Below, in pieces: positions 4,809-63,681 of a stretch of 64,000 nucleotides of DNA (position 1 is the first letter of the stretch; each line of letters begins with the position of its first letter). The notes under the pieces were generated by a model. It saw nothing but the letters and a program-made list of their open reading frames with translations, did not search any database and had not been told where the DNA came from. The stretch lies in IMG/VR virus record IMGVR_UViG_2643221865_000004. One strand, given 5' to 3'. Origin of the DNA: an uncultured virus (IMG/VR IMGVR_UViG_2643221865_000004). Lineage: Duplodnaviria > Heunggongvirae > Uroviricota > Caudoviricetes. The translations under genes were made by a program, and so were the position numbers.

Positions 4809-4848
4809 ACCGGCCAGCCATGTGGCGTGGCGTGTACTCGCGAACCGG

Positions 4849-5484
4849 TCAGCCGGCGGTCGGCACCAACTCCATGGACCCGGCGATCGCCTTGAACGTG
4901 TCGACGGACTTGCCGGAGCGTTCCGCGACGTCGTAGATCCGGTAGGTGTGCTCGTCGGTGACGACAGTCAGCTGGAACGTGTCCGGGTGAGCCCACCCTG
5001 CCGCGTCATCTTCGGTGGTGTCCACAGCTGACGTCTGGCCGTACACGGCGTACGCCCCGTCGACGGGAACAGTGAAACGGGAAGCCGGTCCGATCGGTCC
5101 GTCCTTCGGGTAGTCGAACTCGACGGTGGATTCACGGTCCGAAGCTGACACCCACATGGTCGCCGGCGACTTCCGGTCCTCAGGGCCGAACAGCACGAAC
5201 TCGTGGCCGAGGTCGGCGCTGATGTCAGCACCGTTCCCCGCCTGCAGATCCACCCAGGATGCCGGCACCTTGAAACGGAGCTCACCGACCGTCAACGGCT
5301 TCCAGTCATCGCCGGGCTCAACAGTTGCCAGCGTGGGGAGCTTCCCGACCGGAGTGTCGACGGTCGCGCCGGACGCTTCGAACGCCGGGGCGGTTCCCGT
5401 GGGGAGCAGCGCGCAGCCAGCCAGCGACGATGCGATGACAGCGGCGGCCACCAGGGCAGCGACAGGGCGGGCGGTGATCTTCAT
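4849..5484 (-). CDS. Putative lipoprotein
   Basis: MKITARP... signal peptide with lipobox LAGC; AAGGAG RBS before ATG 5484. Confidence 0.7.
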   Translation of the reverse strand: MKITARPVAALVAAAVIASSLAGCALLPTGTAPAFEASGATVDTPVGKLPTLATVEPGDDWKPLTVGELRFKVPASWVDLQAGNGADISADLGHEFVLFGPEDRKSPATMWVSASDRESTVEFDYPKDGPIGPASRFTVPVDGAYAVYGQTSAVDTTEDDAAGWAHPDTFQLTVVTDEHTYRIYDVAERSGKSVDTFKAIAGSMELVPTAG

Positions 5485-5572
5485 GACGGACTCCTTCGTG
5501 GTCTGCAGGGAAGCCATGTGGCGGGCATGCGAAAGGCCGGGCAGCAGCTGCCCGGCCTCCACATGTCACGTC

Positions 5573-6196
5573 CTACTTGTCGAACGACACCTCAGCGGCG
5601 TCCTCGGAGCCAGCTGCGGCCTGGAAGTACTCGAACTTCTCACCCTGGCCGAGCAGGTTCGCGACCAGCACCGTCGGGAACGAAGACACCTGAGTGTTAA
5701 ACACACGGGCGGCGTCGTTGTAGTCACCGCGGGCGACCGTGATCCGGTTCTCGGTACCTTCCAGCTGCGACTGCAGGTTCAGGAACCCATCCTGCGACTT
5801 CAGCTGCGGGTACGCCTCAGCGACCGCCAGCAGCTTCCCGATGCCGGCACCCAAGTCAGCTTGCGCCTTCTCGAACGCGGCGACCTCAGCCTCCGACGGG
5901 TTCTCGCCCAGGTGGACGCCGGTCGCCTTCGAACGCGCCGCAACCACCTCAGACAACGTCGTCTTCTCCACCTCCGACGCTTCCTTCACCGCAGCGACCA
6001 AGTTCGGGATCAGGTCCGCGCGGCGCTGGTACTGCGCATCCAAGTCAGACAGGGTGGCGTTCACCGTCTCACGCGAGGACACCACACCGTTGTACGTGCC
6101 GACCACCGAACCGGAGGACAGCATCACCACCAGGGCGGCGCCGCCGATCCAGAACCACTTCGCGTAGCTCTTCGGGGAGGTTGTCTCGTCGCCCAT
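5573..6196 (-). CDS. lemA: LemA family protein
   Basis: N-terminal TM, YQRRADLIPNLV, AVAEAYPQLKS, LEGTENRITVARGDYN. Start assigned to ATG 6196. Confidence 0.92.
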   Translation of the reverse strand: MGDETTSPKSYAKWFWIGGAALVVMLSSGSVVGTYNGVVSSRETVNATLSDLDAQYQRRADLIPNLVAAVKEASEVEKTTLSEVVAARSKATGVHLGENPSEAEVAAFEKAQADLGAGIGKLLAVAEAYPQLKSQDGFLNLQSQLEGTENRITVARGDYNDAARVFNTQVSSFPTVLVANLLGQGEKFEYFQAAAGSEDAAEVSFDK

Positions 6197-6239
6197 CAGG
6201 GCCTCCAAATGTTCAAGGCACGCATCGCGCGCAGAGTGG

Positions 6240-6764
6240 TCAGGCTGCAGTTGCAAGCCGGGCGCGGCGGTACGCCGCAACCCAGGTGCCGAGCGGAGCG
6301 ACATAGATCGTCGGCGAACCCGCCCGGGTGACGATCCCGACAGCGGCGTCCGGGGCTGGGTGCTTCTTCGCCCACTCGGCCGCGGCGGTGGCCGCTTTGT
6401 GTTCGACCGGCGGCGCTGTGAGGTCCTCCGGCCATTCGACGACGGACGCGAGCCACTTCTGGTGCGGTCCGCGGGCGTTGTGCATCTTCACCATGCCGAG
6501 CGCGTAAGGCTGTTCGGCGTTCTTCGCCTGGTCGACACTGGTGACTGCAGCGTCGTACATGGCCTTCGACAGGTACTGCGGCTTGAACACCTTCACCTGC
6601 ACGGCCGCGTCGGGGAAGACGCGGAGGTCACCCTCGTCGTCTTTCCGGCCGGCGCCGAGCATCCGGCGGGGGTTGCGGACGACGAGGTCTGGACAGAGGG
6701 CGACGAGGAACTCGACTGCGTCACGCTCCCCCTTGTCGCCCTTGTTCTTGTTCGCGTTCACCAT
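6240..6764 (-). CDS. Holliday junction resolvase-like PD-(D/E)XK nuclease
   Basis: NKNKGDKGER...GDL...AVQVK pattern of phage/archaeal Hjc-type resolvases; coupled to the primase-helicase. Confidence 0.75.
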   Translation of the reverse strand: MVNANKNKGDKGERDAVEFLVALCPDLVVRNPRRMLGAGRKDDEGDLRVFPDAAVQVKVFKPQYLSKAMYDAAVTSVDQAKNAEQPYALGMVKMHNARGPHQKWLASVVEWPEDLTAPPVEHKAATAAAEWAKKHPAPDAAVGIVTRAGSPTIYVAPLGTWVAAYRRARLATAA

Positions 6765-9700: not shown

Positions 9701-9841
9701 GAGGGTCTCGTATCCGCGGGCTGCTGCCACGAGCGGAGCGACGCCGGAGTCGGCGAGTTTCTGGGCGCCAGTGAACTTGATGCCGGACGGGGCGTAGTCG
9801 GCGGAGATCCAGGGGGTGCGCGGAGTGGATGAATTGGTCAT
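6764..9841 (-). CDS. Primase-helicase (DUF3854-like TOPRIM plus DUF927/SF3-type P-loop helicase); likely replication initiator
   Basis: LLITEGVIKGD, LAFDGD, KVGIDDFL (TOPRIM); Walker A GAPGGGKS, Walker B WVMDD, sensor ATAEN. Start at ATG 9841 directly after the promoter motif. Confidence 0.8.
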   Translation of the reverse strand: MTNSSTPRTPWISADYAPSGIKFTGAQKLADSGVAPLVAAARGYETLESEQVKDFAKQHRLGNANSKQYNQVATVTQYADALVLLWYSADQVAEAHRRSQPPIFTSMQLRPGSPRRNPATGKLMKYENLKDQPSVIDVNPGTPLEWYSSSPKLLITEGVIKGDAALTAQLRANGIPEEELQNNGLTRVEAIDKLGKLMMSIPEEKRVTILSFVGVANWKNNEVWISMPLRGRQLLLAFDGDIATNYNVWKQANDLWGYTQGKGAIVNLVDLDIVDFDDKVANLIDEENAKSTGANTPVKAEKVGIDDFLVRHGDWDDILARLTMQLPPQPAIKRDDEPVGTWRVAEDGNSVAAYVEKEDPFGNKIAQWVTQGNIGGYIAALETHRAPTEREVETAVFGEGVQEQDVPSSSIVRIHLQWLNEDGDEMTADVTGPSTILADPPSEWHKRKADIPNSLLIHPEWPYTGQTGSSWLKAIKANRDTPLREHVSWSAMGYVPVEGSKVCAFISGKTVIAASESDRLKTIPGVNEVVLPGSAKFSLPVVDPEPGTDEWKELVRTDLNTLRDRFITKGAWTNKQIAAAVIAGGLRPTVPVPNTTVLYAVGAPGGGKSWTVSMILAFWQARKTWSNKMLPGSMKDTGTSVEQALAQTNIWVMDDLAPSADKRQSEMEQSKLGDIVRSVHNKTAKRRSGTELKAREVFEPKALLIATAENEHTVNSVRDRTVILNLDKDALNEHATDMVEFRDHDATPGRITVEAVQAYQTLAVHNGWANTLEHIVRGAAARYEEVARKVITAVTSDGRKIEGKAPDRHIGMAVDLMLGLLSIEVLAEMVGDKEWLKLLDPKKKGNLLELIAQLVSGSFQSQAEVTPGRSLMEAIRLLIASGRAHILNANDPGIPPYPNGTPFMNNQMGWRADSQDKLRPLGTSIGWLVGDDMVMLNATNAFEMAQRAYPHLLPSGTMASVSFNSVWNEGLSHPRYTDRDGNRATKVFRNGGKSQRGVPIHVDLLLNDELPEPEAKPVEVESEFD

Positions 9842-9847
9842 GGGGTC

Positions 9848-10506
9848 TCTATGCGCGAGCCGGAGTGCCGGCTGTCCACTTTCGACCTCTGATACCGAAA
9901 TCACCCAGCGTCACCACCGCCGGGTTACAGGTTCTCCCCTTATGGCTGCTGGGAAGAACCCTTACTACTACTACTGATTACCCAGTTACCAAGTTAACAA
10001 ATACCCCTTAAGGGAAAAGCAATATATCCGCTGGCTCTCTCCAGCTATATATCTATGGCCCCTAATACTTATGCATGCTGTTCCGGTGGGTAATTCGGGT
10101 ATCAAGGCTGTTTTTGCCCTTCTGATCTGCCTTTATACAGGTACCACGGGGTTGGTTACAGCTGGTGATCTGGGTGATTCTGGTCGGTTACGGACCGGTT
10201 TGTGCCGTCGCCGAAGTTGACAGCACCCTCGTTCGGGTGATATTCGCGCGCGCACGCGCGGGCGCGCGCGTTCCTACTTAATACGTGCACCCTGCCCCCA
10301 AGTCGGGGGTGATTCCGCATTTCAGGTGTAATGCGAGCGATCCTCACCGCTCCACACCTACGCGCACAGGCGCGCGACGCGCGCGTGATCACTACCTCCA
10401 TGTGCGGACGCGCGCCAATTTGCGCAGCACCCTGCACTGCTCCGCCTCCGCCACATGTCCTACGCGGACGCGTAAATGACAGCCGGCACTCCGGCTCGCG
10501 CATAGA
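9848..10506. repeat. Exact 29-bp inverted repeat (9848-9876 and 10478-10506) forming divergent promoters
   Basis: GACAGCCGGCACTCCGGCTCGCGCATAGA at 10478-10506 is the exact reverse complement of 9848-9876; each copy ends 6 nt before an ATG. Confidence 0.9.
9900..10330. other. Putative replication origin (AT-rich, GTTAC repeats)
   Basis: Most conspicuously AT-rich stretch in the window; GTTAC at 9924, 9985, 10155, 10187 and GTTAAC at 9993; lies between the primase-helicase and ParA-like genes. Confidence 0.6.
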
Positions 10507-10512
10507 ACCCCT

Positions 10513-13727: not shown

Positions 13728-14167
13728 GCGCGCCGGTGACTTCGCTCGCTGACGCGAAGACCGCACGGGTCGCTGCGGACCACGAACGAGCCGAGTGGCT
13801 CGTGTCTCTGGCGGACGGGTTCAACTCCCAGGCGGACCTCTTCCAGCGTGCCGGAACACTCGGCGGGCGACCCCTGCTGCGCATCCCGTTGCGTCAGGTT
13901 CTGCTCGCCACGAAGGGCATCGGAGACCAGAAGGCGGCGCACATCTTGGCGCGCGTCCAGACGGTCCTCGGGGTCAAGATCCCGGTCCGAAAGATGACGG
14001 TCGGCTGGCTCCTGGACTCCCGCGCCGGCGGCCGCCGAGCGATGGCGTGGCAGGACGTGACGACCTCTCTGCGGTCAGAACCGTGGCCCGGCTTCCCCTA
14101 TTCTTCTCGGCTCGTAAACGCCGTTGGGGGACATCAGTCCTCCGCAAACCGAGGAGAACACCTGTGA
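13724..14167 (+). CDS. mIHF-like (H2TH) nucleoid-associated protein
   Basis: IPLRQVLLATKGIGDQKAAHIL resembles the actinobacterial IHF/S13-like H2TH motif; ATGA-coupled. Confidence 0.65.
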   Translation: MSAPVTSLADAKTARVAADHERAEWLVSLADGFNSQADLFQRAGTLGGRPLLRIPLRQVLLATKGIGDQKAAHILARVQTVLGVKIPVRKMTVGWLLDSRAGGRRAMAWQDVTTSLRSEPWPGFPYSSRLVNAVGGHQSSANRGEHL

Positions 14168-15045
14168 GCATCGACGTCGCGACCTATTTCGCTGAGCGCA
14201 TCGAATCCCTGCGCGGTCTGGATGGGGGACACCGCCAGATCGGCTCGTCTCCGCTGGAACGCGGGGTCCACCGTGTGCTGCGTGATTTCAACGGTCACAT
14301 TTGGGGGTGGTCGAACCAGGCGTGCCGCGCGCACGGTGACCGCGACCTGCTGTTCGCCGAGGATGTGCGCAGCACCATCTCGCTGAAAGTGTGGCAGGCG
14401 ATCATGAAGGAGCTGACTGACCCGGCCGATCCGGCGATTGTCAACTATTACTCCTACTTTCAGAAAATCGCTCAGCGCACTGCGTTCGCGTTTTTCCACA
14501 CGTCGGAGCGGTCCGGATTCAGCAACGTGAACGGTGCGTTGCGCCGCACGTCGAAGATCAACAAGACCCGCGGCGAGATGACCATTTCGATGGGCCGTGA
14601 GCCGTCGGACGAAGAGGTCGTTGCGGAGGTGAACCGGGTCATGCACGAGACCCGGAAGAACCCGGAGAAGCAGGGTGCCCTGGTCAGCCTTCAGGATGTG
14701 CGTGTTGCCACGTCTTCATCGCTTGACGGCATGGTCGCCGAGTACGGCGATTCGATCTGGGAGCCCGTCGTTCACGACGAGGCCGAGCTGTCCTCTGTCG
14801 AAGCTCCGTCGTTGATCGAGAGGATCATCGATGAGTGTTTCGACGAGTCTTCGGAGCTGGGCGAGATCGCTCAGCTGTGGATCGGGAACGCTGTTTCCGA
14901 GCCGCCGGTGATCCGTACGGAGGTGGAGATTCGTGATCTCGTGTCCCCGAGGGTGGCGTCTGTTGCTGCGCTGATGATCGAGGTGAAGGAAGTGGCACAG
15001 CGTGTGTGCATCGACGACTTCGGCATCGACTCTCCCTTTCTCTGA
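14164..15045 (+). CDS. Divergent sigma-70-family factor
   Basis: GTG 14164 with GAGGAG RBS and GTGA overlap. Region 2-like NYYSYFQKIAQRTAFAFF, region 3 signature MGREPSDEEVVAE, region 3.2-like SSLD. Confidence 0.65.
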   Translation: MSIDVATYFAERIESLRGLDGGHRQIGSSPLERGVHRVLRDFNGHIWGWSNQACRAHGDRDLLFAEDVRSTISLKVWQAIMKELTDPADPAIVNYYSYFQKIAQRTAFAFFHTSERSGFSNVNGALRRTSKINKTRGEMTISMGREPSDEEVVAEVNRVMHETRKNPEKQGALVSLQDVRVATSSSLDGMVAEYGDSIWEPVVHDEAELSSVEAPSLIERIIDECFDESSELGEIAQLWIGNAVSEPPVIRTEVEIRDLVSPRVASVAALMIEVKEVAQRVCIDDFGIDSPFL

Positions 15046-15049
15046 TCAT

Positions 15050-15980: not shown

Positions 15981-16039
15981 TTGGACTCCCCCGGTGTTGT
16001 GCTGATGTAGGGGTTAGACATGTGGCGAGGCAGCGCCAG

Positions 16040-18496: not shown

Positions 18497-18565
18497 GAAG
18501 TCTGCTTCCGGTCGCGGGGACGCCTCGGCGTGTTCTGTCTGTTGTGTGGGCATGTGGCGGAAGGC

Positions 18566-20148: not shown

Positions 20149-20238
20149 GGAGGCTTTCTGTGGCGGGAGGTCGGGGTCTGAAAGACATGTGGCAAAGCTC
20201 GCCTGGTGTCTGCTGACCTGGACCTTGTAGGTGTGTGG

Positions 20239-20727
20239 CTACGCGGCGTCCACGACGGAGCGGCGTGTCCCCGCGAGGACGGCGGCCAGGTCGATGTACC
20301 AGGCGGTCGGATCGTCGGCGAACCCGGGGACCAGGCGGATGACGAGGTCGGAGTCGACGGCGGCGAAGTCGTCGACGGTCTGGCGGGTGACGTAGGCGGA
20401 GAGCAGTCCGAGCCCGACATCGGCGACGGTGGATGCTCCGCCGTCCCAGTCGCTCAGGTACGCGGCGGCGTTCTCCGCCGCAACCTCGGCAACCTTTCCG
20501 GAGTGGGTCTCGAGCGCCCAGATCTGCGGGTAGATGTCACGGATGCTGACGTGATTACCGGCGGCCTCCGCGACGGTGTTGGTGAGGGCGAGTGCCGTTG
20601 CGCGGTCAGTGTCGATGTAGTCGAGGCCTGTCGCTGCGGCAGCCAGAAGGTCGCGGATGTACTCGGGAGCGTCGGTGGCGCCGGCTTCAGCGAGACGTCC
20701 GGCGATGGTGCGAGGGAATGCAGTCAT
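20239..20727 (-). CDS. Hypothetical protein
   Basis: Preceded by the GCAGCCGGC..CGCGCATAGA motif, as in the replication genes. Confidence 0.75.
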   Translation of the reverse strand: MTAFPRTIAGRLAEAGATDAPEYIRDLLAAAATGLDYIDTDRATALALTNTVAEAAGNHVSIRDIYPQIWALETHSGKVAEVAAENAAAYLSDWDGGASTVADVGLGLLSAYVTRQTVDDFAAVDSDLVIRLVPGFADDPTAWYIDLAAVLAGTRRSVVDAA

Positions 20728-20826
20728 ACAGTTCTATGCGCGACGGGAGTAGCCGGCTGCTTCCAGCAAGGGTGGAGCCTCGGGCCGCGCCGACACCGAG
20801 TAGCGCGGCCCGAGGGGTTCAGGGGG

Positions 20827-21408: not shown

Positions 21409-21462
21409 GGTGTTCCCTCCTCACTGGTCCGGGATTGGTTCAGCTGTCAGACATGTGGCGAA

Positions 21463-22053: not shown

Positions 22054-22140
22054 GGGCTCGGTGCCTTTCGTTGTGGGCAGGCGGTGAAACCTGTCACACC
22101 TCAGGCATGTGGCGAATAACACTCGGTTCTCGCTGTTCCG

Positions 22141-22536: not shown

Positions 22537-22568
22537 ACCCCAAAGGCATGTGGCGGAGAGTCAGTGGT

Positions 22569-24152: not shown

Positions 24153-24200
24153 CGGGCGTCTCCAGGTCGGCTTCTGGGGTGAGGCATGTGGCGGACGCAG

Positions 24201-26555: not shown

Positions 26556-26654
26556 ATCGGACGGACATGTGGCGAAAACCCTTTTGTCCCTTGTGGGGAC
26601 GGAAACGCCCCGGTCAGCCGAAGCCAACCGGGGCGATCCTTGTCACGCCCTAGG

Positions 26655-28787: not shown

Positions 28788-29188
28788 GGCTGTTGTTTCC
28801 AAAAGGCTTCCAATCCTTCGAGGACGGCCTGTCGGTCGTCCGGGGTTCCAAATACTTCGAATGTGTAGAGCAACGGGACGTTGCATTTCTCTGCGACGAT
28901 GCGGGCTGCCAGGCAGTACGCTTCGCCGAAGTTTGTGTTGCCGGCGCCGATCACTCCGCGGAGGAGGGCCCGGTTGTCGGGGTGGTTGAGGAACTTGATG
29001 ACCTGCTTCGGGACGGCTCCTCCGTCGTTCCCTCCGCCATACGTCGGGAGGATCAAGACATGTGGCGACTCCATGACGACGGTGTCGTCCTTCGTCATGA
29101 CCGGGAGACGGGTGGCGGGCAGGTCGAGGGATTCGACGAACCGGTGGGTATTTCCGGAGACGCTGGAGAAGTAGGAGATGGTGCTCAT
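28784..29188 (-). CDS. nrdI: Class Ib RNR flavodoxin
   Basis: [34 protein letters not shown]. Confidence 0.95.
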
Positions 29189-30217: not shown

Positions 30218-30253
30218 GCCACATCCATGTGCGGACTGTTCCGGTTTCGGAGC

Positions 30254-31306: not shown

Positions 31307-31438
31307 GGTTTCAGCACCACGCCCGGACGGTCGATGCGGTACAAGCCATGCTTGGTGCCTCCTCGTTCCGGGCGCTCCACACGGGAGTCCACGGCGGAGG
31401 CATGTGGCGAGAAGCTCAACTGCGGTCGCTGCTCAGCG

Positions 31439-33249: not shown

Positions 33250-33391
33250 TTCCGGGCCCCGGTTCCAGAGGCGTGTGACGCCTCTTCCTGAGGGCTGGTG
33301 GGGTGTGAGCTGCGCATTGGAATCCTCCTGAGGTGGTGTTCCCCTCCCTCATGTGCGGACGGTCGCGGCTTTGCGTGTCAGGGCTGAGCTG

Positions 33392-33987: not shown

Positions 33988-34015
33988 GCATGTGGCGTGG
34001 GTCTGCGCCACATGC
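33988..34015. promoter_or_regulatory. Back-to-back CGCCACATG motifs serving divergent genes
   Basis: GCATGTGGCG-TGGGTCTG-CGCCACATGC; start codons 9 and 10 nt away on either side. Confidence 0.75.
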
Positions 34016-35160: not shown

Positions 35161-35221
35161 GTGGCTTCGGGGCCGGGGCGCGCCGAAGCTGACCGCAGAT
35201 CCGCCACATGTCTGCACTGAA

Positions 35222-36216: not shown

Positions 36217-36281
36217 CTGCGCAGAAACCGGCGATGCCGCACATGTTGGTGTGGAACTACACCCTCTTGAAAGGAGTCGAC

Positions 36282-37359: not shown

Positions 37360-37479
37360 TCGGTCTGCCGAGGTTCCCCACGATGTTGTCGTCTGCACAT
37401 CAGGGAGGCATGTGGCGAGGGATGAAGTTCGGCGCCCCACCCGAAGGTGAGACGCCGAACTGTCATCGTCGGTTCGTGT

Positions 37480-40347: not shown

Positions 40348-40409
40348 GCTCTTTTAGGTATGTGGCGAAAAGCCGCATGGCCCCTCGAAGAGGCGATTTC
40401 GCCCGGCGA

Positions 40410-41246: not shown

Positions 41247-41385
41247 GGGGCTCCGATGTTCGAGCTGCCCTGCTGCGGCGACCGGAGTTGATCCGGTGGG
41301 CGCTGCCGCACCCTGTCGGGGTGTGGGGTGCGGCGCAGGCTGGTCCAGCCCCTCGCGGGAGGGGCCGGAACCTACATGCGCGGAC

Positions 41386-42150: not shown

Positions 42151-42175
42151 GTCACCTACATGTGCGGACAGATGC

Positions 42176-42320: not shown

Positions 42321-42881
42321 TTAGTTGAAGGCCGAGTCCGGAGCAGTGGCCACCGAGGGGATGGTGATGACGACGGGGTCGCCCTTTGCGTCCTTGACTG
42401 CCGGGAGCGCCTCAACGGGAGTGTTGGGGTTGTCCGACGAGATGTAGAAGCGCAGGGTGTCGCTGACCTTGGAGACGGCGATGTACTCGCTGCCGTCAGC
42501 CGAGACGGCAACGTCCACCGACTCGGACGCCTGGATCAGCGAGTCGATGCCGTCGGCGTCAACGCCGGAGACGAGGTCACTGAAGGCGAGGTACTTGCCT
42601 TCGCCGGTGTTGGCGACGTACTGAGCGAAGGCGACGGACTCGGCTTCCTTGACGGAACCGAGGGCCTGCTTGCCAGCCTCCTTCTGTGCCCAGGGGATGA
42701 CCGCGAAGACGGTTGCGGCGATGATGCCACCGACGATGGCGATGACGATGACGCCGACCATGATCGAGGCGAGGTCGATCGCACCCTGCTGCGAGAAGAC
42801 GGCCTTGCGGAGGCCGAGCTCGCTCTTGCGGGCAGCGAACTGCTCCTTACGAGCCTTCAGGCTGTGCCGGAAAACGTTCAT
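42321..42881 (-). CDS. Type IV pilin-like protein (probable major pilin) with a non-canonical N-terminus
   Basis: Basic leader then QQGA-IDLASIMVGVIVIAIVGGIIAATVFAVIPW; lies immediately after the prepilin peptidase, with its own motif at 42960. Confidence 0.75.
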   Translation of the reverse strand: MNVFRHSLKARKEQFAARKSELGLRKAVFSQQGAIDLASIMVGVIVIAIVGGIIAATVFAVIPWAQKEAGKQALGSVKEAESVAFAQYVANTGEGKYLAFSDLVSGVDADGIDSLIQASESVDVAVSADGSEYIAVSKVSDTLRFYISSDNPNTPVEALPAVKDAKGDPVVITIPSVATAPDSAFN

Positions 42882-43006
42882 GAATATGGATCCTTTGGTT
42901 TTGTTGGCCGCCGTATCCGACGGCCAGTCGACTGCACCCGGTCGGGCGCAACGAAAAGGCATGTGGCGAAAACAGCCGTGGATCCTGCAGGTGGGAAGAA
43001 TCCCTG

Positions 43007-44844: not shown

Positions 44845-44896
44845 TCACGCCGTGGACGCGGCGCACACCTGAGGCATGTGGCGAACCCCTCAGTTT

Positions 44897-49036: not shown

Positions 49037-49111
49037 TGGGGGTACCAGCCAAGGGTTCGGTGTCTTGGGCCGCCGGCCGACGGCAACAGGAAGGCATGTG
49101 GCGATTCCGGC

Positions 49112-49936: not shown

Positions 49937-49978
49937 TTCGCCTTCAAGGCATGTGGCGACCGACCCCGGTTTGGGCGG

Positions 49979-50455: not shown

Positions 50456-50523
50456 CGGGTGGGCTTTCTGGTTGTGGGTGGTCGGTTCGCCGGTGGGCGC
50501 TGACACCGTCATGTGCGGACGGG

Positions 50524-53439: not shown

Positions 53440-53483
53440 ATCCCCCACATGTGCGGATGTTGCCGGGTTTGCTGCATCCAGGC

Positions 53484-53891: not shown

Positions 53892-54223
53892 GCGGCGGCG
53901 CCGTAGGAGTCATGGGCAGCGTTCAGCAGGTCGAGCTGTGCCCGGTGGACACCGTGGCCGACGAGAGGTTCGGTGAGAGTCGCCAGTGCGGGACCGTACA
54001 GTCCTGGGCGCCCGGAGAGCTTGCCGAGGAACTCAGAGGTTTCCGGGTCGGCATCGACGGCCGCTTCCGCGGCTTTCCGGTACCAGTAGCGGAAGTCGAT
54101 GATGCTCTCAGCACAGTCTGCGATGGCTTCCCGGTCGGTTTCGGGGATGCTCTCCAACCATTCCAGGACCTGCTCTGCTGCGCGGTGGTTGAGGACGGTC
54201 TGTGGTTCGGCGATGACGCTCAT
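53888..54223 (-). CDS. Hypothetical protein
   Basis: ATG 10 nt after the motif at 54234; ATGA overlap with the lipoprotein. Confidence 0.7.
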   Translation of the reverse strand: MSVIAEPQTVLNHRAAEQVLEWLESIPETDREAIADCAESIIDFRYWYRKAAEAAVDADPETSEFLGKLSGRPGLYGPALATLTEPLVGHGVHRAQLDLLNAAHDSYGAAA

Positions 54224-54233: not shown

Positions 54234-54257
54234 CATGTGGCGATGGTCCGCCACATG
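54234..54257. promoter_or_regulatory. Back-to-back CGCCACATG motifs serving divergent genes
   Basis: CATGTGGCG-ATGGTC-CGCCACATG; starts at 54223 and 54268, each exactly 10 nt away. Confidence 0.78.
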
Positions 54258-55665: not shown

Positions 55666-55787
55666 GTTCACCACATGTGCGGATCAGAACGGATCCGCCT
55701 CCCGAAGTTGTGCCGCCACATGCCTGAATGGTGGGAGCGGATGACGCGCCCGACCCTTTTCGCCGTCCTTCCCTCATCGGAGCCTTC

Positions 55788-56267: not shown

Positions 56268-56376
56268 GAGCACCCGCAGCCCGGCCGGGGGCACGGCACG
56301 CACCGTTTGCCACATGGCTCACAGCTGACAACCAGCCGGCACGCAGTCGTGTCCGGCCGAAGCTGGAAGGCCACCG

Positions 56377-57834
56377 ATGTTCCGCAAGCTCTACCGACCG
56401 CTACCCACCTTGGCAAGCCTGCGTGCTGCGATCGATCTCGCCTCGATCATGGTGGGTGTCATCGTCATCGCCATCATCGGTGCGATCATCGCCGCCAGCG
56501 TCTTCACCGTGATCCCCTGGTCCCAGGACGAGAAAGCGAAGGTGGATCTGACTGCGGTCAAGGACATCCAAGCCATCGCCAAGCTCCCGGCTCCCGGCGG
56601 TGTCGGAAGGTACCTGGAGACCGCCGACCTGACCAGCGGAGCCCTGGCCGGGTTCGAAGGTAAGAAGGTCGACGACCCCGGCACTCTGCTGGTCACCACC
56701 GACCAGGACGGCACCTGCTACGTCGCCACCTCTCGGTCCCAGTCCGGCCAGGTCGTCTGGTACGTCACCGACAAGAACCCAGCACCCCAGAAGACCGCCA
56801 TCGCCCCTGACTACTGCGGCATCGACGTCGTCCAGCAGGGCGAAGACACCCCCGGCCCCGGCAGCGGCCCCAGTGGCGGCGGACCAATCACACCAGTCGG
56901 AAACCCCGGCGACCCGGCCGTCGATGTGGACGGATACGTGCCCACAGGGCAGCCCAACCCGACCGTATTCGCTGACCGCAACGGTGGCGGCCTCGGAACC
57001 AACCCGTCCGGCGCCGGACCGTCACGCTCCTACAACGTCACAGCTGTCATCGGCGGGCCTGGCCCGTCGAACCCTGCACTGCCGGTGATCACCGAAGCGC
57101 CAAGCGACACCACGATCTCCGATGTTCACGCATGGATTGGCACGAAGGAAGTCTCCGTCACCCAGTCAGGTTGGTTCCTGATGAGCGGCAACGCGAGCGC
57201 TGTGGTCATCGGGAACAACAACTTCAAGGTCGGTTCCGGATGGAACTCCACCGTCAGGTCATGGTGGGAGGACGGCTACCTGTCCTTCAAGGTGGGCGGC
57301 GGACAGCCGAACATCATGCGCATGAACGGGGCAACGTCACCCATGCTCGACTCCCTGTCGAACGACTACGGTGAGGACTTCGTCTGGCCGGCCGTCGCTG
57401 AGGCCACAGCGGCAAGGTCGGGCGTGAGCGACTGGAGCTACGGAGCCGGCTTCGAAAGCTTGTTCAGCACTGTCCGGCCGTTCACCCCCGCCGACATCAA
57501 GTCGTTGCCGTTCCTGAAGAACATCCACGCGACCGGCGGCGCAACCATCAACCTGACCAACGGTGTCATCCACCTGGCCGACGGACGGAACCTGTCGTTG
57601 GCGAAGGACCTTGCCTACTTCGACTCGTCGGAGCCGTGGCTGACGATGAGGACCTTCTCCGACGGAGACGGACAGTTCACGTCCGTCACCACCGTCGTCA
57701 ACGAGGCCAAAGCACTGAAGGGCATCACCCGCGCGGAGCTGCTCGGCGCCACGATCACATTCGAGTCGAACGGCACCAACACCATCAAGCTGGTCGACAA
57801 GCACTGGTACGACACCAAGTTCAACCGGAACTGA
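56377..57834 (+). CDS. Large pilin-like protein (minor pilin or adhesin)
   Basis: N-terminal AA-IDLASIMVGVIVIAIIGAIIAASVFTVIPW, nearly identical to 42321-42881, plus a beta-rich C-terminal extension. Confidence 0.75.
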   Translation: MFRKLYRPLPTLASLRAAIDLASIMVGVIVIAIIGAIIAASVFTVIPWSQDEKAKVDLTAVKDIQAIAKLPAPGGVGRYLETADLTSGALAGFEGKKVDDPGTLLVTTDQDGTCYVATSRSQSGQVVWYVTDKNPAPQKTAIAPDYCGIDVVQQGEDTPGPGSGPSGGGPITPVGNPGDPAVDVDGYVPTGQPNPTVFADRNGGGLGTNPSGAGPSRSYNVTAVIGGPGPSNPALPVITEAPSDTTISDVHAWIGTKEVSVTQSGWFLMSGNASAVVIGNNNFKVGSGWNSTVRSWWEDGYLSFKVGGGQPNIMRMNGATSPMLDSLSNDYGEDFVWPAVAEATAARSGVSDWSYGAGFESLFSTVRPFTPADIKSLPFLKNIHATGGATINLTNGVIHLADGRNLSLAKDLAYFDSSEPWLTMRTFSDGDGQFTSVTTVVNEAKALKGITRAELLGATITFESNGTNTIKLVDKHWYDTKFNRN

Positions 57835-57843
57835 CACTGTGAA

Positions 57844-58407: not shown

Positions 58408-58469
58408 CCCAGAGGCGTGCGTGTGTTCAGTTGTGAGGCATGTGGTGAACGCACAGTGGATGAAGGAAT

Positions 58470-58543: not shown

Positions 58544-58561
58544 ATGGTGGCCGGCCCAGGT

Positions 58562-59059: not shown

Positions 59060-59081
59060 GGAGCGTAAGTGTGTGGGCTGT

Positions 59082-60073: not shown

Positions 60074-60143
60074 CACCCACATGTGCGGCACCGGCAGGAA
60101 AAGCGTAGGAAGGCTCAGGGTTTCAAGCTGAGCTTGAAGGTTT

Positions 60144-60764
60144 CTACCCGCCGAACGAGGAGTGTCCGATCGAGCTGGACTTCGCGCCGGACCCGAACCC
60201 GCCGGACTTGCCGGCCTTGGAGGTTCCGCCGAAGCCGCCCTTCAGCGAGGTCTTCGATCCGACCTTCGACCCGGCCGGAGCGGCGGGGGCGACGTCGGGC
60301 TGGACCGCGGCGCCGGGTGCGGCGAACCCGCCAGCCTGGACCGGAGCCCATGACTGGACGCGGGGCGAGTCCCAACGGGATCCGCCGAACAGGAGCGGGC
60401 CGAGCCAGATGAAGCTGCCGCCGGCGTGGTGGTACGTGTTCCCGTACTTCTCGCTGGACTCGCACAGCTTCTCCGGGCTGTCGGAAACGGTCTCGCCGTC
60501 AGCTTTCAGCTTCGCGATCTGCTCAGTGACATCCGCGATGCAGTCTTCCTTCGACTTGTACGTGGGGCGTTCCGTGCCGTCTGCGACGACGTAGTTCTTC
60601 CCGTCGGCGCCGGGCATGACGATGCCTTCCTCGGGGACGGAGGAGCAGCCGGCGAGGGCCAGCATGGCGCCGGCGACACCGATGGCGGTGACGGTCTTGG
60701 CGATGGTCTTGTTGCGGTCGGCGGCGATGCCGGAGATGGTGAGGGTGCCGCGGCGGGTGGTCAC
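60144..60764 (-). CDS. YgiB/DUF1190-like lipoprotein
   Basis: LAGC lipobox, YKSKEDC...C, Gly/Ser tail KGGFGG; adjacent to the Gsp-synthase-like gene. Confidence 0.7.
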   Translation of the reverse strand: MTTRRGTLTISGIAADRNKTIAKTVTAIGVAGAMLALAGCSSVPEEGIVMPGADGKNYVVADGTERPTYKSKEDCIADVTEQIAKLKADGETVSDSPEKLCESSEKYGNTYHHAGGSFIWLGPLLFGGSRWDSPRVQSWAPVQAGGFAAPGAAVQPDVAPAAPAGSKVGSKTSLKGGFGGTSKAGKSGGFGSGAKSSSIGHSSFGG

Positions 60765-60777
60765 AGTTCCTGTGCTC

Positions 60778-61968
60778 CTAGTTCTCGATGAAGTGGGGGA
60801 CGAACTCGGCGAGGTCTCCGGTGATCGGGCCGCTGGTTTCGCGGATGTCGATCCCGGCGGGGGTTTCCCCGACGACCCAGGAGCCGATGATCACGGTCTT
60901 GCCGTTGAGGCGGGCCAGGTTCGCACGCTTCTGGAAGATGAACCCTTCCTCGCCGTACGCGCCGGGCTGTGCCACGTCGACGGAGCCGTCACCCTTGTAC
61001 ACGGTGACGTTCGCGCCTTCACGGCCGAGCCTCGGCTTTGAGACATGTGGCGTACCGCGGAGCTTCTCCGGGCTCTCGTACGTCGCGAGCAGGTTCGGGT
61101 GGTTCGGGAACATCTCCCACAGCACCACGAGGAGCTGCTTGTTGCTGAGCAGCATCTTCCACAGCGGCTCCACCCACTGGGTGTTGTCCTTGGACGGTTC
61201 CAGGAACCCGGCGAACTGCTCCTCACGCATCCACTCCCACGGGTACAGCTTGAAGATGTGGGTGATGTCCTGACCGTCGGAGTCGACGAACTGGTTCCGG
61301 TCGGCGTCGTACTCGACGTCCTCCATGAAGATCAGCTTCGGGGTGAACCCGGCTTCCTTCGCGGTCTCAGCCATGTACGCCACGGTGTCGGCGTCCTCGA
61401 TGATCAGGTCACCGTCGCCGTCGTCGTGCAGCGATGCGAGGTGGAGGACGGTGCCTTCCGGCAGGTTCCAGCGTTCCTCGCGGATGTGCTTCCACTGCTC
61501 GACGAGGAGCTCGTGGATGGCGTTGAACTGGTCGGCGTTCTCGCCGCGGACCTGGACGAGCCACTGCCACTGTGCAGCGGCGGACTCGACGAGGCTGGTG
61601 GGGGTGTCGGCGTTGAACTCCAACATCTTGATCGTGGAGCCGTTGTCGTAGGCGAGGTCGAACCGGCCGTACACGGTCGGGTCGTCGTTGTCCCAGGAGT
61701 CCTTCACCAGCTGGCGGAGGCGTTCCGGGATTCCGAACTCGGCGAGGCGGTCCTCGCGGACGACATGCTCGACGGCGTCCATGCACCGGTCGAACAGCTC
61801 CTTCGTCGCAGCTGCCAGCTCATCCACCTCGCGGGAGGTGAAACCGTACGCGTTCACTTCGTTCCAGTACGGACGTCCGCCTTCGGACTCCAGGTCGTAG
61901 AACGAGAAGCCGATCTGGTCGAACTGCTCCCGCCAGTCGGGACGGGCGGGGGAATCGATGCGACGCAC
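60778..61968 (-). CDS. Glutathionylspermidine synthase-like ATP-grasp ligase (YgiC/YjfC family)
   Basis: YGRFDL, LEFNADTPTSLVE, FKLYPWEWM, EPLWKMLLSNK, KPRLGREGAN, FVPH. Confidence 0.92.
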   Translation of the reverse strand: MRRIDSPARPDWREQFDQIGFSFYDLESEGGRPYWNEVNAYGFTSREVDELAAATKELFDRCMDAVEHVVREDRLAEFGIPERLRQLVKDSWDNDDPTVYGRFDLAYDNGSTIKMLEFNADTPTSLVESAAAQWQWLVQVRGENADQFNAIHELLVEQWKHIREERWNLPEGTVLHLASLHDDGDGDLIIEDADTVAYMAETAKEAGFTPKLIFMEDVEYDADRNQFVDSDGQDITHIFKLYPWEWMREEQFAGFLEPSKDNTQWVEPLWKMLLSNKQLLVVLWEMFPNHPNLLATYESPEKLRGTPHVSKPRLGREGANVTVYKGDGSVDVAQPGAYGEEGFIFQKRANLARLNGKTVIIGSWVVGETPAGIDIRETSGPITGDLAEFVPHFIEN

Positions 61969-62050
61969 AGTGTTCCAATCGTGTCATGGCCACAGCCTGC
62001 GGAATGCAGCGCTGTTGTGGACTTGGCCGGGTTCGCACCGACCGTTTCCG

Positions 62051-62123
62051 CTCCCCCGCCTGGATTCGAACCAAGGCCTGAACAGCTCCAAAGGCTGCCG
62101 TGCTACCGCTACACCACGGGGGA
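62051..62123 (-). tRNA. tRNA-Gln(TTG)
   Basis: TCCCCCG/CGGGGGA acceptor, GCAGC-CTTTGGA-GCTGT anticodon arm, GGTTCGAATCC; CCA not encoded. Confidence 0.92.
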
Positions 62124-62249
62124 TCACTTCTTCTGGACCTACATGCGCGGATCCCGGCCGATTGTTCGGGCAGCTGTCACCCGGACTGGGTTTTGTCGGC
62201 CGTCTTCGCCCGCCGGTAGTGTCGGGCGACCCGAAAGGACCCGAACCTC

Positions 62250-62975
62250 ATGGACAACGAATCCGTCAAGGACGACGCCCAGGCACCAGCAGCCCCTTCG
62301 GTGGCGCCGGCGCCCGCGACAGCCGCAGCGCCGAAGGCTCCACGGGCATCCAAGCCGCGTGTGCCAGGCGCGCCAGCCAAGCCGAAGTCGGCCGCGAAGC
62401 CGAGGAAGAAGCTGTCGAAGACCGCCATCGCGTTGATCGCCGTATCCGGCGTCGCCGTCCTCGGGTGGGCTTCGTTCGCTGTCGCCGTCAACGTCGCCGC
62501 GAACACGAACGATGAGCTCGTCCACGTTCAGGCTGACAACACGAAGATGTCCGGGGAGAAGGACGACCTGATCGGCGACCTGACCGAGATGACGGCGTCA
62601 CGGGACCAGTACATGAACGCGTCCGACGCTGTCGCCAAACGGGAAGAGGCTGTGAAGGTCAAGGAGACGGCGCTGCAGACACGGGAGGACGCCGTGAAAG
62701 GCCGCGAGGATGCGGTCACCGGTGCGGAAGCCCGTGTGGCGCAGACCACATTGAAGGACGGGTACTCCTACATTGTCGGAGTGTCCATGGAGCCCGGCGT
62801 CTACGAGGCGACGTCAGCGAGCGGCACCTGCTACTGGGAGATCAACACCTCCGGCACCAACGGGTCCGACATCGTCGACAACGACCTCGGCGCGCAAGGG
62901 CTGATCCGTGTCACCGTCAGCGGCGGACAGGACTTCAACTCCTCCCGCTGCGGCGACTGGAAGAAGGTCGGCTAG
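62250..62975 (+). CDS. Membrane-anchored coiled-coil protein
   Basis: Basic N-terminus, TM, coiled coil, C-terminal PGVY...CYWEI...CGDW domain. Confidence 0.75.
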   Translation: MDNESVKDDAQAPAAPSVAPAPATAAAPKAPRASKPRVPGAPAKPKSAAKPRKKLSKTAIALIAVSGVAVLGWASFAVAVNVAANTNDELVHVQADNTKMSGEKDDLIGDLTEMTASRDQYMNASDAVAKREEAVKVKETALQTREDAVKGREDAVTGAEARVAQTTLKDGYSYIVGVSMEPGVYEATSASGTCYWEINTSGTNGSDIVDNDLGAQGLIRVTVSGGQDFNSSRCGDWKKVG

Positions 62976-62980
62976 ACCAG

Positions 62981-63619
62981 CTACCAGAGGTTCGCTTCGG
63001 TGCGGCTGATGTCGAACCCGTGCCCGGATGAGGCCCGATCACAGGTCATGCCGTCCTCGCGGGACACGCACACCACTCCCCCGAACGTGATCGACTTACC
63101 GTAGTCCAGAACGGCGACGGTGTCGTCATAGGTGCCGCGGAACGGTTCGTCAGTCCGGCAACCGAACTTCACCGGGTCGTCACCGACACCTTCGACGCTG
63201 CCGACCATGTGGCAATGCTCGCTCGGCCGTGGCCCCGGATCGAACGTGAACTCCTTCGCCTTACAGCCCCAGAAATCCCAGTCGGTGCCCGCCTCGAAGA
63301 TGGTGCAGACGATGTTCCGTGACGGGCTGACGAAGTCAACGCCGTCGCCTCCAGTCTCCGACATGTCCATGAACAGGCCAGGGTTCACCGGGACGACAAC
63401 CTCGGCGGCCGGCGGGTCGGTCACCAGCTGTTCCGGGGTCTCGGTGGCGACTGGTGGCAGCGTCTCGGTCGGCGCCGGGACGCTGGTCGAGGTTGGTTCG
63501 GTGGCCGCCGGCAGGTCGACCCCAGTGGAGGGGGTCGGAGCGGAAGAGGCGCCGGCGCATCCGGTCAGGATGACGGCAAGCGCCCCGACCGTGGCCAAGG
63601 AGATGAGGGTGCGGCGCAA
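62981..63619 (-). CDS. Putative lipoprotein
   Basis: GGAAGGA RBS and TTG start; LTGC lipobox; FVSPSRNIVC...LDYGKSI..G.V.C. Confidence 0.7.
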   Translation of the reverse strand: MRRTLISLATVGALAVILTGCAGASSAPTPSTGVDLPAATEPTSTSVPAPTETLPPVATETPEQLVTDPPAAEVVVPVNPGLFMDMSETGGDGVDFVSPSRNIVCTIFEAGTDWDFWGCKAKEFTFDPGPRPSEHCHMVGSVEGVGDDPVKFGCRTDEPFRGTYDDTVAVLDYGKSITFGGVVCVSREDGMTCDRASSGHGFDISRTEANLW

Positions 63620-63681
63620 GAAGGTTCCTTCCAGTCTGCGGTGACGCAGGTGGGACATGTGGCAGAGCCTCCGCGATCCTC

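What the first reader, a model, noticed from the sequence alone, without database searches (positions are those of the whole stretch)
4819..63664. Element-wide promoter-like motif CGCCACATG, often 10 nt before leaderless starts
Seen: I counted 24 exact copies by eye. Minus-oriented CATGTGGCG at 4819, 5515, 16019, 18551, 21452, 22106, 22547, 24185, 26566, 29059, 31401, 33989, 37409, 42960, 44875, 49095, 49950, 54234, 61044; plus-oriented at 10449, 34006, 35202, 54249, 55714. One-mismatch copies lie at 20186, 40359, 56308, 58439, 63656. Roughly one copy would be expected by chance at this GC content. All but two are intergenic and point into the next gene. Where there is no RBS, the start codon is 10 nt downstream (4808, 22536, 26555, 34025, 54223, 54268; 9-11 nt at 33979, 35222, 40347). 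It does not resemble the housekeeping TANNNT -10. Inference: this is the -10-like element of a private promoter class, with +1 at the start codon of leaderless mRNAs.
Basis: partly seen in the sequence, partly recalled or inferred. Interest (0 to 1): 0.9.

Follow-up and report, generated by a model that had tools for sequence, protein, structure and literature searches.

The report
Private promoter motif of a megaplasmid
A short DNA word repeated in front of about 150 genes of a 700-kb plasmid-like replicon is most likely a promoter that only the replicon's own transcription factors read, so the replicon largely runs its own gene-expression programme inside its host.

Summary
There are 24 exact CGCCACATG copies in the window against 0.83 expected. 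There are 118 on the 701-kb, lower-GC contig C5 against 20 in the other 3.84 Mb, and 2-36 in each of 40 related genomes.

The full signal is yCGCCACATGyCT, followed by GG, then a pyrimidine and a purine 10-11 nt after the 9-mer. That purine is often the start codon. With the TGCCACATG variant, 134 of 150 sites lie outside called genes and 136 point at a gene start.

The host's own leaderless signature, TANNNT at -12, is sharp on the chromosome and almost absent from C5. So the promoter reading is supported, though only indirectly: no RNA data exist.

The motif is one of at least three private classes on C5. Related Micrococcales megaplasmids carry their own variants at the same position.

C5 encodes candidate readers. 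One is an unannotated sigma-like protein inside this window. Two are divergent ECF-like sigmas. Which one reads this motif is not settled.

The parts
4819..4827 (-). class A site; ATG at 4808 (offset 19), YgjV-like membrane protein
5515..5523 (-). class A site after a hairpin; GGAG and ATG 39 nt from the motif start
10449..10457 (+). class A site upstream of the ParA-like / 336-aa / IHF-like / sigma-like operon (ATG 10513)
16019..16027 (-). class A site; leader with GGGGGAG, start about 47 nt downstream
18551..18559 (-). class A site after a hairpin, before the SLT-domain gene string
21452..21460 (-). class A site before the NUDIX gene (start 21408)
22106..22114 (-). class A site, start about 61 nt downstream
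22547..22555 (-). class A site; GTG at 22536 (offset 19)
24185..24193 (-). class A site after a hairpin; start 41 nt downstream
26566..26574 (-). class A site; ATG at 26555 (offset 19), Ig-repeat protein
29059..29067 (-). class A site inside the small gene upstream of nrdE (intragenic)
31401..31409 (-). class A site before the CAP-domain gene
33989..33997 (-). class A site, half of a back-to-back divergent pair; GTG at 33979 (offset 18)
34006..34014 (+). class A site, other half of the pair; ATG at 34025 (offset 19), MmcB-like protein
35202..35210 (+). class A site after a hairpin; GTG at 35222 (offset 20)
37409..37417 (-). class A site after a hairpin; GTG at offset 19
42960..42968 (-). class A site before gene 42321-42962
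44875..44883 (-). class A site before the T2SSF-like gene (ATG 44844)
49095..49103 (-). class A site before the 1013-aa T2SSE-like ATPase gene
49950..49958 (-). class A site before the CHAP-domain gene (ATG at offset 22)
54234..54242 (-). class A site, half of a back-to-back pair; ATG at 54223 (offset 19)
54249..54257 (+). class A site, other half of the pair; GTG at 54268 (offset 19)
55714..55722 (+). class A site before gene 55728/55788-56267
61044..61052 (-). class A site inside the glutathionylspermidine-synthase-like gene, pointing at gene 60144-60764
20186..20194 (-). variant TGCCACATG before the gene string that ends with nrdF
40359..40367 (-). variant CGCCACATA; ATG at 40347 (offset 20), reprolysin-like protein
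56308..56316 (+). variant TGCCACATG before gene 56377-57834
63656..63664 (-). variant TGCCACATG before the DUF6636 gene
10399..10407 (-). class B site (CCGCACATG) next to the AT-rich, origin-like gap
30226..30234 (-). class B site; ATG at offset 17
33350..33358 (-). class B site before the SLOG-domain gene
36237..36245 (+). class B site
41375..41383 (-). class C site (CCGCGCATG)
42159..42167 (-). class B site; ATG at offset 17, HD-domain gene
50510..50518 (-). class B site before the dUTPase gene
53448..53456 (-). class B site before the NT5C gene; ATG at offset 17
55674..55682 (-). class B site before the sortase gene; ATG at offset 17
60080..60088 (-). class B site
62142..62150 (-). class C site 27 nt upstream of tRNA-Gln (62050-62123)
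4124..4149 (-). class D two-part site (CAGCC..CGCATAG) before a small ORF and dnaE
9849..9874 (-). class D site; ATG at 9841 of the Toprim + P-loop 1025/1046-aa protein
10480..10505 (+). class D site, the same 26-mer as 9849-9874, directly before ATG 10513 of the ParA-like operon
20734..20759 (-). class D site before gene 20239-20727
14164..15045 (+). gene for a 293-aa divergent sigma-70-family-like protein (P0007), a candidate reader of one private promoter class

Best explanation
CGCCACATG is the invariant core of a roughly 12-bp core promoter element, yCGCCACATGyCT ('class A'), on a 701-kb megaplasmid-like replicon (contig C5). It lies at about -19 to -8 from the transcription start. Transcription starts at a purine 10-11 nt after the 9-mer. 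In about 40% of copies that purine is the first base of the start codon, giving a leaderless mRNA; in the rest a short leader with a Shine-Dalgarno sequence follows. There is no -35 box and no host-type TANNNT -10. I therefore infer that host core RNA polymerase reads the element with a specificity factor encoded by the replicon, most likely one of its own sigma factors. The candidates are two divergent ECF-like paralogs found only on C5 among the three plasmids compared (C5:356507-357157 and C5:475959-476735) and a conserved, unannotated sigma-like protein in this window (14164-15045). Class A is one of at least three private classes on C5. Class B/C is tCCGCRCATGtwGGTG with an upstream CAGAA element, about 200 sites. 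Class D is CAGCCGG-N-CGCATAG, about 19 sites, in front of replication genes. Together classes A and B/C sit in front of 303 of 793 called genes. What is shown: the counts, specificity, position, orientation, spacing, the absence of host-type promoters, the analogous motifs on related plasmids, and the sigma-like fold. What is inferred: that transcription starts there, and which factor reads which class.
For: Enrichment and specificity: 24 copies in the window against 0.83 expected; 118 on C5 against 20 elsewhere; 2-36 per genome in 40 relatives.

Logo from the 118 copies: C at offset 10 in 117 of 118; T or C at offset 11 in 105; a pyrimidine at offset 18 in 106; a purine at offset 19 in 114; nothing conserved from -50 to -3.

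Spacing: ATG or GTG at offset 19 in 45 of 118 and at offset 17 in 22 of 118.

Position: 134 of 150 [CT]GCCACATG sites lie outside called genes, although only 14% of C5 is non-coding. 136 have a co-oriented gene start within 400 nt downstream, against 28 if the sites are flipped.

Divergent pairs at 33989/34006 and 54234/54249 fill intergenic gaps of about 45 nt between two leaderless starts, so the promoters of both genes must lie there.

Sites also precede tRNA genes: class A lies 45 nt before a tRNA-Asn and class C 27 nt before tRNA-Gln. This argues against a translation signal.

Host control: TANNNT peaks at -12 before the first in-frame ATG/GTG in 64 of 569 and 44 of 402 long chromosomal ORFs, but in only 2 of 237 on C5.

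Relatives: pACHL01 has CCGCACACAT 139 times (0.7 expected) and Curtobacterium plasmid D40 has CCGCGCATAG 88 times (0.7 expected). Both are again intergenic and sit 7-8 nt before start codons.

Candidate readers: for the 293-aa protein P0007, a profile of 78 relatives hits FliA at E = 2e-5 plus SigA, SigF and RpoS. The AlphaFold model has pLDDT 89.6. The Foldseek rows listed (to rank 50) are RNA-polymerase/sigma-factor entries, a few of them integrative models, and the top 50 VIA rows are nearly all sigma factors, apart from two or three integrative models; SigB gives Z 10.1 over 230 residues, and the SigC sigma-2 domain gives Z 9.1 at rmsd 2.4 A over 88 of 88 residues. The two ECF-like paralogs have region-4 hits of 44.3 and 35.2 bits, and one passes TIGR02937.
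Against: There is no direct evidence of transcription starts, because no RNA run was found.

No factor has been tied to class A. The two ECF-like sigmas would normally need a -35 box, and class A has none. Neither of their genes is preceded by any private motif.

The conserved sigma-like protein fits class D better. A CGCATAG box precedes its operon on all three plasmids, whereas class A is specific to C5.

P0007 is below Pfam's gathering score (18.8 against 25.3 bits) and has no NCBIfam hit.

102 of 150 sites follow a co-oriented gene within 200 nt, and hairpins upstream are only slightly more frequent than in controls (15% against 7% with MFE <= -20). So most sites sit inside gene strings without an obvious terminator, which would also fit a roadblock or processing signal.

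Gene starts come from my own crude caller.
Confidence: 0.72

Rival explanations
1. The motif is an operator for a replicon-encoded DNA-binding protein: a global repressor, activator or 'stoperator'-type roadblock. In this reading it overlaps or punctuates transcription units and is not itself the promoter.
For: The sites are asymmetric, intergenic and oriented with transcription. 102 of 150 lie within gene strings just after a co-oriented gene, with few clear terminators. C5 encodes many small helix-turn-helix and HA-domain proteins.
Against: The block occupies about -19 to -8 before leaderless start codons, and no host-type TANNNT is left at -12. A separate promoter would therefore have no room, least of all in the 45-nt divergent pairs. 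The spacing to the start is fixed, and the pyrimidine/purine pair at offsets 18/19 is part of the conserved signal.
Confidence: 0.1
2. A host sigma factor reads the motif, so the element has merely adopted a host alternative-sigma regulon and needs no factor of its own.
For: The chromosome encodes 14 Sigma70_r2 hits. One of the ECF-like C5 sigmas has 30-38% identical relatives in 179 of 401 genomes of the order.
Against: Outside one low-GC island, the chromosome holds only 14 copies in 3.8 Mb, mostly in coding frames and without the yCT extension. The 40 related genomes show background counts. Related plasmids in other genera each have a different word at the same position, which fits factors that travel with the plasmid.
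Confidence: 0.08
3. A replicon-encoded polymerase of another kind reads the motif, either single-subunit phage-like or a non-canonical multisubunit enzyme. The contiguous, -35-less, roughly 12-bp block would suggest this.
For: The architecture, one contiguous block from about -19 to -8 followed by GG and a pyrimidine/purine pair, resembles phage single-subunit promoters (from general knowledge). C5 has at least ten ORFs of 600-1400 aa without Pfam hits.
Against: No PF00940 hit was found, although that search's controls were silent. No DxDGD motif occurs in any large C5 protein. Three of the largest ORFans have no sequence match in the PDB, and one of them looks by eye like a Toprim + P-loop primase-helicase.
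Confidence: 0.05
4. The motif works at the RNA level, as a processing or cleavage signal that trims polycistronic transcripts to leaderless mRNAs, or as a translation signal.
For: It is strand-specific, lies at a fixed distance from start codons, and most copies sit within co-oriented gene strings.
Against: Back-to-back divergent pairs have no upstream transcript to process. Sites precede tRNA genes. The related classes B/C and D, and the main pACHL01 class, carry a second upstream box about 10-15 nt before the core, like -35 elements.
Confidence: 0.04

Closest known systems
SigN (ZpdN) regulon of Bacillus subtilis plasmid pBS32 (PMC6751061; abstract and passages read)
   Same: A plasmid-encoded sigma factor directs host polymerase to a consensus found on the plasmid and not on the chromosome. 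Its targets include plasmid replication-type genes such as gyrase, and the sigma gene has a promoter of its own class.
   Different: pBS32 is far smaller (size recalled, from no call) with about a dozen two-part -35/-10 promoters and one sigma. Here a 701-kb replicon has about 350 sites in at least three classes before 303 of 793 genes.
Phage promoter classes read by phage-encoded sigmas, such as T4 late promoters (gp55, a -10-only TATAAATA box) and SPO1 gp28/gp34 (recalled, not from any call)
   Same: A private consensus replaces the host -10. T4 late promoters also lack a -35. Several classes can form a cascade.
   Different: This element is a megaplasmid carrying flagellar, tRNA, CRISPR and replication genes, and I saw no phage structural genes. 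The motif is GC-rich and lies further upstream, at -19 to -8.
Repeated early promoters of Streptomyces phage phiC31, and the phage sigma-dependent leaderless promoters noted earlier in this scan (finding e1-4401637; the phiC31 details are recalled)
   Same: An actinobacterial mobile element with a repeated non-sigma-70 consensus in front of genes, with the start at the start codon.
   Different: Those have a handful of copies on a phage of about 40 kb. Here there are hundreds of copies on a plasmid family, with lineage-specific variants.
Stoperators of mycobacteriophage L5 (recalled, not from any call)
   Same: Asymmetric sites of about 13 bp, many copies, in short intergenic gaps, all oriented with transcription.
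   Different: Stoperators are repressor sites with no fixed distance to start codons, and they coexist with ordinary promoters. Here the block replaces the -10 region and has fixed spacing to leaderless starts.

Membership tests
Housekeeping (SigA-type) actinobacterial promoter | TANNNT hexamer at about -12 to -7 from the start | tested here: not met
   At class A sites the -12 to -7 window reads TGyCTy. TANNNT at -12 occurs in 2 of 237 C5 ORFs, against 64 of 569 and 44 of 402 on chromosomal contigs.
Two-part sigma-70-family promoter (-35 plus -10) | A second conserved box about 17 bp upstream of the -10 region | tested here: not met
   Class A is flat from -50 to -3. Classes B/C (CAGAA, with C in 80%) and D (CAGCCGG), and the main pACHL01 class (cGGgGAg), do have such a box.
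Promoter in general | Transcripts start at a fixed distance downstream | not testable with these tools
   No RNA run holds this DNA. The proxies are a pyrimidine at offset 18 in 106 of 118 copies, a purine at offset 19 in 114 of 118, and a start codon at offset 19 in 45 of 118.
Promoter in general | Lies upstream of genes and is co-oriented with them | tested here: met
   134 of 150 sites are outside called genes, and 136 of 150 have a co-oriented start within 400 nt, against 28 if the sites are flipped.
Plasmid-private sigma regulon (SigN-like) | Consensus confined to the plasmid, and a sigma gene on the plasmid | tested here: met
   118 copies on C5 against 20 elsewhere. C5 holds five sigma-like genes.
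Plasmid-private sigma regulon (SigN-like) | [quoted passage not shown] | not testable with these tools
   This needs in vitro transcription or induction experiments.
Sigma-70 family (for the 293-aa protein, window 14164-15045) | Sigma-2 domain fold | tested here: met
   VIA-align gives SigC sigma-2 (2o7g_A) Z 9.1 at rmsd 2.4 A over 88 of 88 residues, and sigmaE region 2 (4lup_A) Z 9.1 over 91 of 91. The model pLDDT is 89.6.
Sigma-70 family (for the 293-aa protein) | Passes curated family thresholds (Pfam r2/r3/r4, NCBIfam) | tested here: not met
   Sigma70_r3 scores 18.8 bits against a cut-off of 25.3. Among 78 relatives, r3 hits 17 and r4_2, r4 and r2 hit 2 each at E <= 0.01. There is no NCBIfam hit.
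Sigma-70 family (for the 293-aa protein) | Full-length sigma-2/3/4 arrangement | tested here: met
   The Foldseek rows listed (to rank 50) are RNA-polymerase/sigma-factor entries, a few of them integrative models, aligned over about 255-350 columns. VIA gives SigB (8x6g_H) Z 10.1 over 230 residues. The profile hits FliA at E = 2e-5. The Z values are moderate for an all-helical protein.
L5-type stoperator | A repressor site independent of promoter geometry, coexisting with ordinary promoters | tested here: not met
   The spacing to leaderless starts is fixed and no host-type -10 remains. Repressor binding itself cannot be tested here.

The most novel reading that the evidence does not exclude
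A whole family of 375-750-kb Micrococcales megaplasmids runs a nearly orthogonal transcription programme. These plasmids carry their own DnaE, gyrase, ribonucleotide reductase, tRNA arrays and flagella. Almost every operon is driven by lineage-specific, mostly leaderless promoters that several plasmid-encoded sigma factors read. One of these belongs to a previously unrecognised sigma-70 branch, with 307 cluster representatives annotated as hypothetical or HTH proteins, that sits in the replication module. The classes form a cascade: class D serves replication genes, and classes A and B/C serve the rest. On C5 they also reach into a chromosomal island.
Probability: 0.4. Interest if true: 0.8.

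Novelty: new variant of a known kind. Interest (0 to 1): 0.72.

Why it matters
If this holds, a 700-kb plasmid insulates most of its roughly 800 genes from the host's housekeeping promoter code. Phages are known to do this, but it is described for plasmids only on a small scale (SigN of pBS32). Four things would follow.

- It would explain how such giant replicons control their cost and stay portable between genera.
- It would give a ready set of orthogonal promoter/sigma pairs for high-GC actinobacteria.
- It would give a simple sequence signature for recognising these replicons and their integrated islands in draft assemblies.
- It assigns a likely function to a widespread family of unannotated proteins.

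Tried and rejected
- **RNA evidence.** No RNA holder is listed for the stretch.
- **Other polymerases.** The PF00940 search of the genome found nothing, but its controls were silent too. A DxDGD scan found nothing in large proteins. PDB sequence searches of three large ORFans gave nothing usable.
It heads a complete flagellar cluster of about 30 kb that has no class A site.
- **The 405-aa core protein as a sigma.** The lead was a weak r2 hit in its pACHL01 ortholog. Its alignment shows no sigma features.
- **The 205-aa core protein.** It is a membrane protein.
- **Terminators before sites.** Upstream hairpins are only slightly enriched.
- **Closer relatives.** The single genome-contig scan returned one 6.5-kb Agromyces contig with no informative intergenic DNA.
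- **The second over-represented word, CCACTGGTAC.** It is a coding repeat in Ig-repeat genes.
- **Literature.** Searches for 'megaplasmid, Curtobacterium, promoter', 'pACHL01', 'Curtobacterium, megaplasmid' and 'Arthrobacter, megaplasmid, leaderless', plus one paper checked, found no description of these motifs or of this plasmid family's transcription.
- **Earlier notes of this scan.** There are none for this genome or for the sigma-like protein.

Full report
**Observation.** Dinucleotide-preserving shuffles give a mean of 0.83 and a maximum of 4. The five one-mismatch copies exist too, but one-mismatch hits as a whole (24) are only about what chance gives, 48 in all against 22.4 expected. 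Two copies, 29059 and 61044, are inside genes.

**Where the window lies.** The window is G000:C5:633971-697970. C5 is 701,121 bp at 65.2% GC, while the large contigs are at 68-69%. C5 holds 118 copies and the other ten contigs (3.84 Mb) hold 20. Forty related genomes hold 2-36 each, close to a reversed-word control.

Six of the 20 chromosomal copies carry the extended motif. They cluster in a 63-65% GC stretch of contig C1, at about 400-480 kb, which also holds 14 CCGCGCATG sites. The other 14 mostly lie in coding frames and lack the extension.

**What C5 is.** Pfam scans show that C5 encodes:
- its own DnaE, plus a second DnaE fragment;
- GyrB and GyrA, and two NAD-dependent ligases;
- NrdE and NrdF, ThyA and a dUTPase;
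- SMC- and FtsK-like proteins;
- a type I-E Cas3/Cse1;
- two Tad/T2SS-like ATPase sets and sortases;
- a complete flagellar cluster.

It also carries 42 tRNA genes, 38 of them in one array. A 1046-aa protein in the window, which by eye has a Toprim domain and a P-loop, has 33-37% identical homologs on eight plasmids of 375-608 kb from Curtobacterium, Arthrobacter, Pseudarthrobacter and Paenarthrobacter, and gene order around it is conserved. Local tblastn finds 93 C5 proteins shared with both pACHL01 and Curtobacterium plasmid D40. C5 is therefore a member of a family of very large Micrococcales plasmids. I found no paper that describes their transcription.

**Anatomy of the motif.** Aligning the 118 C5 copies gives the following logo:
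- T or C just before the 9-mer;
- C, T or G at offset 9;
- C at offset 10 in 117 of 118;
- T or C at offset 11 in 105 of 118;
- G-rich offsets 16-17;
- a pyrimidine at offset 18 in 106 of 118;
- a purine at offset 19 in 114 of 118.

Nothing is conserved from -50 to -3. ATG or GTG stands at offset 19 in 45 copies and at offset 17 in 22. Where it does not, a purine-rich Shine-Dalgarno sequence and a start follow at about 35-70 nt.

Counting the frequent variant TGCCACATG (32 on C5, 10 elsewhere), 134 of 150 sites lie outside my called genes, although only 14% of C5 is non-coding. 136 have a co-oriented gene start within 400 nt, against 28 if the sites are flipped.

Two back-to-back pairs, 33989/34006 and 54234/54249, fill gaps of about 45 nt between divergent leaderless starts. 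A class A site lies 45 nt before a tRNA-Asn gene.

**Host control.** On two chromosomal contigs, TANNNT shows a sharp peak at -12 from the first in-frame ATG/GTG of long ORFs: 64 of 569 and 44 of 402. This is the signature of leaderless mRNAs made from SigA-type promoters. On C5 the figure is 2 of 237. So the host uses leaderless genes heavily, while the leaderless genes on C5 carry a different box in place of the host -10.

K-mer statistics on the whole of C5 show further words that are equally specific to the replicon.

- *Classes B and C.* CCGCACATG occurs 128 times on C5 and 30 elsewhere; CCGCGCATG occurs 71 and 93 times. They share flanks, tCCGCRCATG-tw-GGTG, and an upstream CAGAA box (C in 80%) 11-15 nt before the core. 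They have a pyrimidine/purine pair at offsets 16/17, and an ATG at offset 17 in 42 of 128 class B copies.
- *Class D.* A two-part signal, CAGCC(GG)-N10-16-CGCATAG, followed by a start codon 5-7 nt later. It occurs 19 times on C5. In the window it precedes the dnaE string, the primase-helicase-like gene, the ParA-like operon and one more gene.

In all, 303 of 793 called genes have a class A or B/C site within 300 nt upstream.

**Relatives.** The exact word is not enriched on pACHL01 (2 copies) or D40 (3 copies), but each has its own word.
- pACHL01 has CCGCACACAT 139 times against 0.7 expected, with an upstream cGGgGAg box, and a second class, CTACGCATG, 32 times.
- D40 has (t)CCGCGCATAG(a) 88 times against 0.7 expected.

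These words are again intergenic, gene-directed and 7-8 nt before start codons. All occupy about -17 to -8. A CGCATAG-type box precedes the orthologous ParA-like and primase-helicase-like genes on all three plasmids.

**Candidate readers.** C5 has five sigma-like genes.

1. A FliA/WhiG-like sigma sits at the head of the flagellar cluster, which carries no class A site. I set it aside.
2. An ordinary ECF sigma lies at C5:302835-303332, inside a 66-kb stretch without class A sites.
3. and 4. Two divergent ECF-like paralogs lie at C5:356507-357157 and C5:475959-476735. They are 29% identical to each other. Their region-4 hits score 44.3 and 35.2 bits, and one passes the TIGR02937 cut-off. phmmer does not find them on pACHL01 or D40. 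Relatives at 30-38% identity are common in chromosomes of the order. Neither gene has a private motif upstream.
5. A 293-aa protein in this window (14164-15045) is the last gene of the ParA-like operon. That operon is preceded by a class A site (10449) and a class D site (10480-10505).

**The evidence on the 293-aa protein.** This fifth protein is conserved on all three plasmids. pACHL01 annotates it only as an 'HTH domain-containing protein'.
- Its Agromyces homologs carry sub-threshold Sigma70_r3 hits.
- A profile search of 1.84 billion representatives finds 307 relatives of about 270-300 aa.
- A profile of 78 of them hits FliA (E = 2e-5), SigF, SigA and RpoS in the PDB.
- The AlphaFold model has pLDDT 89.6.
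- Its listed Foldseek matches (to rank 50) are RNA-polymerase/sigma-factor entries, a few of them integrative models, and nearly all of its top 50 VIA-align matches are sigma factors. SigB gives Z 10.1 over 230 residues, and the SigC sigma-2 domain gives Z 9.1 at rmsd 2.4 A over 88 of 88 residues.

It does not reach Pfam or NCBIfam thresholds. I therefore call it sigma-like by fold and profile, not a curated family member.

**Which sigma reads class A.** This is open. The conserved sigma-like protein fits the conserved class D best. The two C5-only ECF-like paralogs match the C5-only classes A and B/C in number, and the AAC-containing upstream box of B/C looks ECF-like (from general knowledge). 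But class A has no -35 box, which is unusual for ECF sigmas. My rough odds are: class A is a promoter, 0.85; it is read through a C5-encoded sigma, 0.65; that sigma is one of the two ECF-like paralogs, 0.4; it is the 293-aa protein, 0.2.

**Rivals.** An operator or roadblock site is the main rival, because most sites sit inside gene strings with few terminators. However, the block leaves no room for another promoter. A host sigma, an unrecognised polymerase and an RNA-level signal are each less likely, for the reasons given in their entries.

**Comparison.** The closest described system is SigN of pBS32, a plasmid-encoded sigma with a plasmid-only regulon and autoregulation (PMC6751061, passages read). 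The differences are scale, the number of classes, the leaderless geometry and the lineage-specific variants across a plasmid family. Phage late promoters (T4 gp55), phiC31 early promoters and L5 stoperators are recalled analogies that I did not test.

**Verdict.** It is a new variant of a known kind, a private sigma/promoter system, and it is remarkable for its extent. It needs transcription start mapping.

Noticed in passing
window 14164-15045 (+): This unannotated 293-aa protein is a divergent sigma-70-family-like protein by profile and predicted fold. It has 307 cluster representatives in public data, mostly labelled as hypothetical.
   Followed up: yes
window 9905-10512: AT-rich, repeat-rich gap between the divergent primase-helicase-like and ParA-like genes. 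It is flanked by two identical 26-bp class D sites and looks like the replication origin. D40 has a similar gap.
   Followed up: partly
G000:C5:5894-22352: An array of 38 tRNA genes (42 on C5 in all), beside genes for an RNA ligase, a Thg1-like enzyme, a peptidyl-tRNA hydrolase and a CCA-adding-like enzyme.
   Followed up: partly
G000:C5:102586-131800 (L006, L007): A complete flagellar gene cluster with its own FliA-like sigma, CsrA and FliW lies on the plasmid. It carries no class A site.
   Followed up: partly
G000:C1: about 400000-480000: A chromosomal island of 63-65% GC holds 6 extended class A and 14 class C sites. It may be an integrated relative of the plasmid, or a target of its factors.
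   Followed up: partly
L036:1250-4222 (pACHL01 377249-380221): A 990-aa fusion of an XPB/ResIII-type helicase, a full sigma-70 (regions 2, 3 and 4) and a C-terminal HA domain. C5 has at least six small HA-domain proteins but no such fusion.
   Followed up: partly
window 24249-26627 and 37480-40347: The over-represented word CCACTGGTAC (GTACCAGTGG on the coding strand) recurs about every 270 nt. It is a coding repeat of Ig-like domains, not a regulatory site.
   Followed up: yes
G000:C5:534575-540368 (L028): Type I-E CRISPR-Cas genes (Cas3 and a Cse1-Cse2 fusion) lie on the plasmid.
   Followed up: no
L035:31732-31833 (D40 489657-489758): PLSDB lists a 102-bp 'NDM-19' hit predicted by rgi on this Curtobacterium plasmid. 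From its size and place it looks like an annotation artefact.
   Followed up: no
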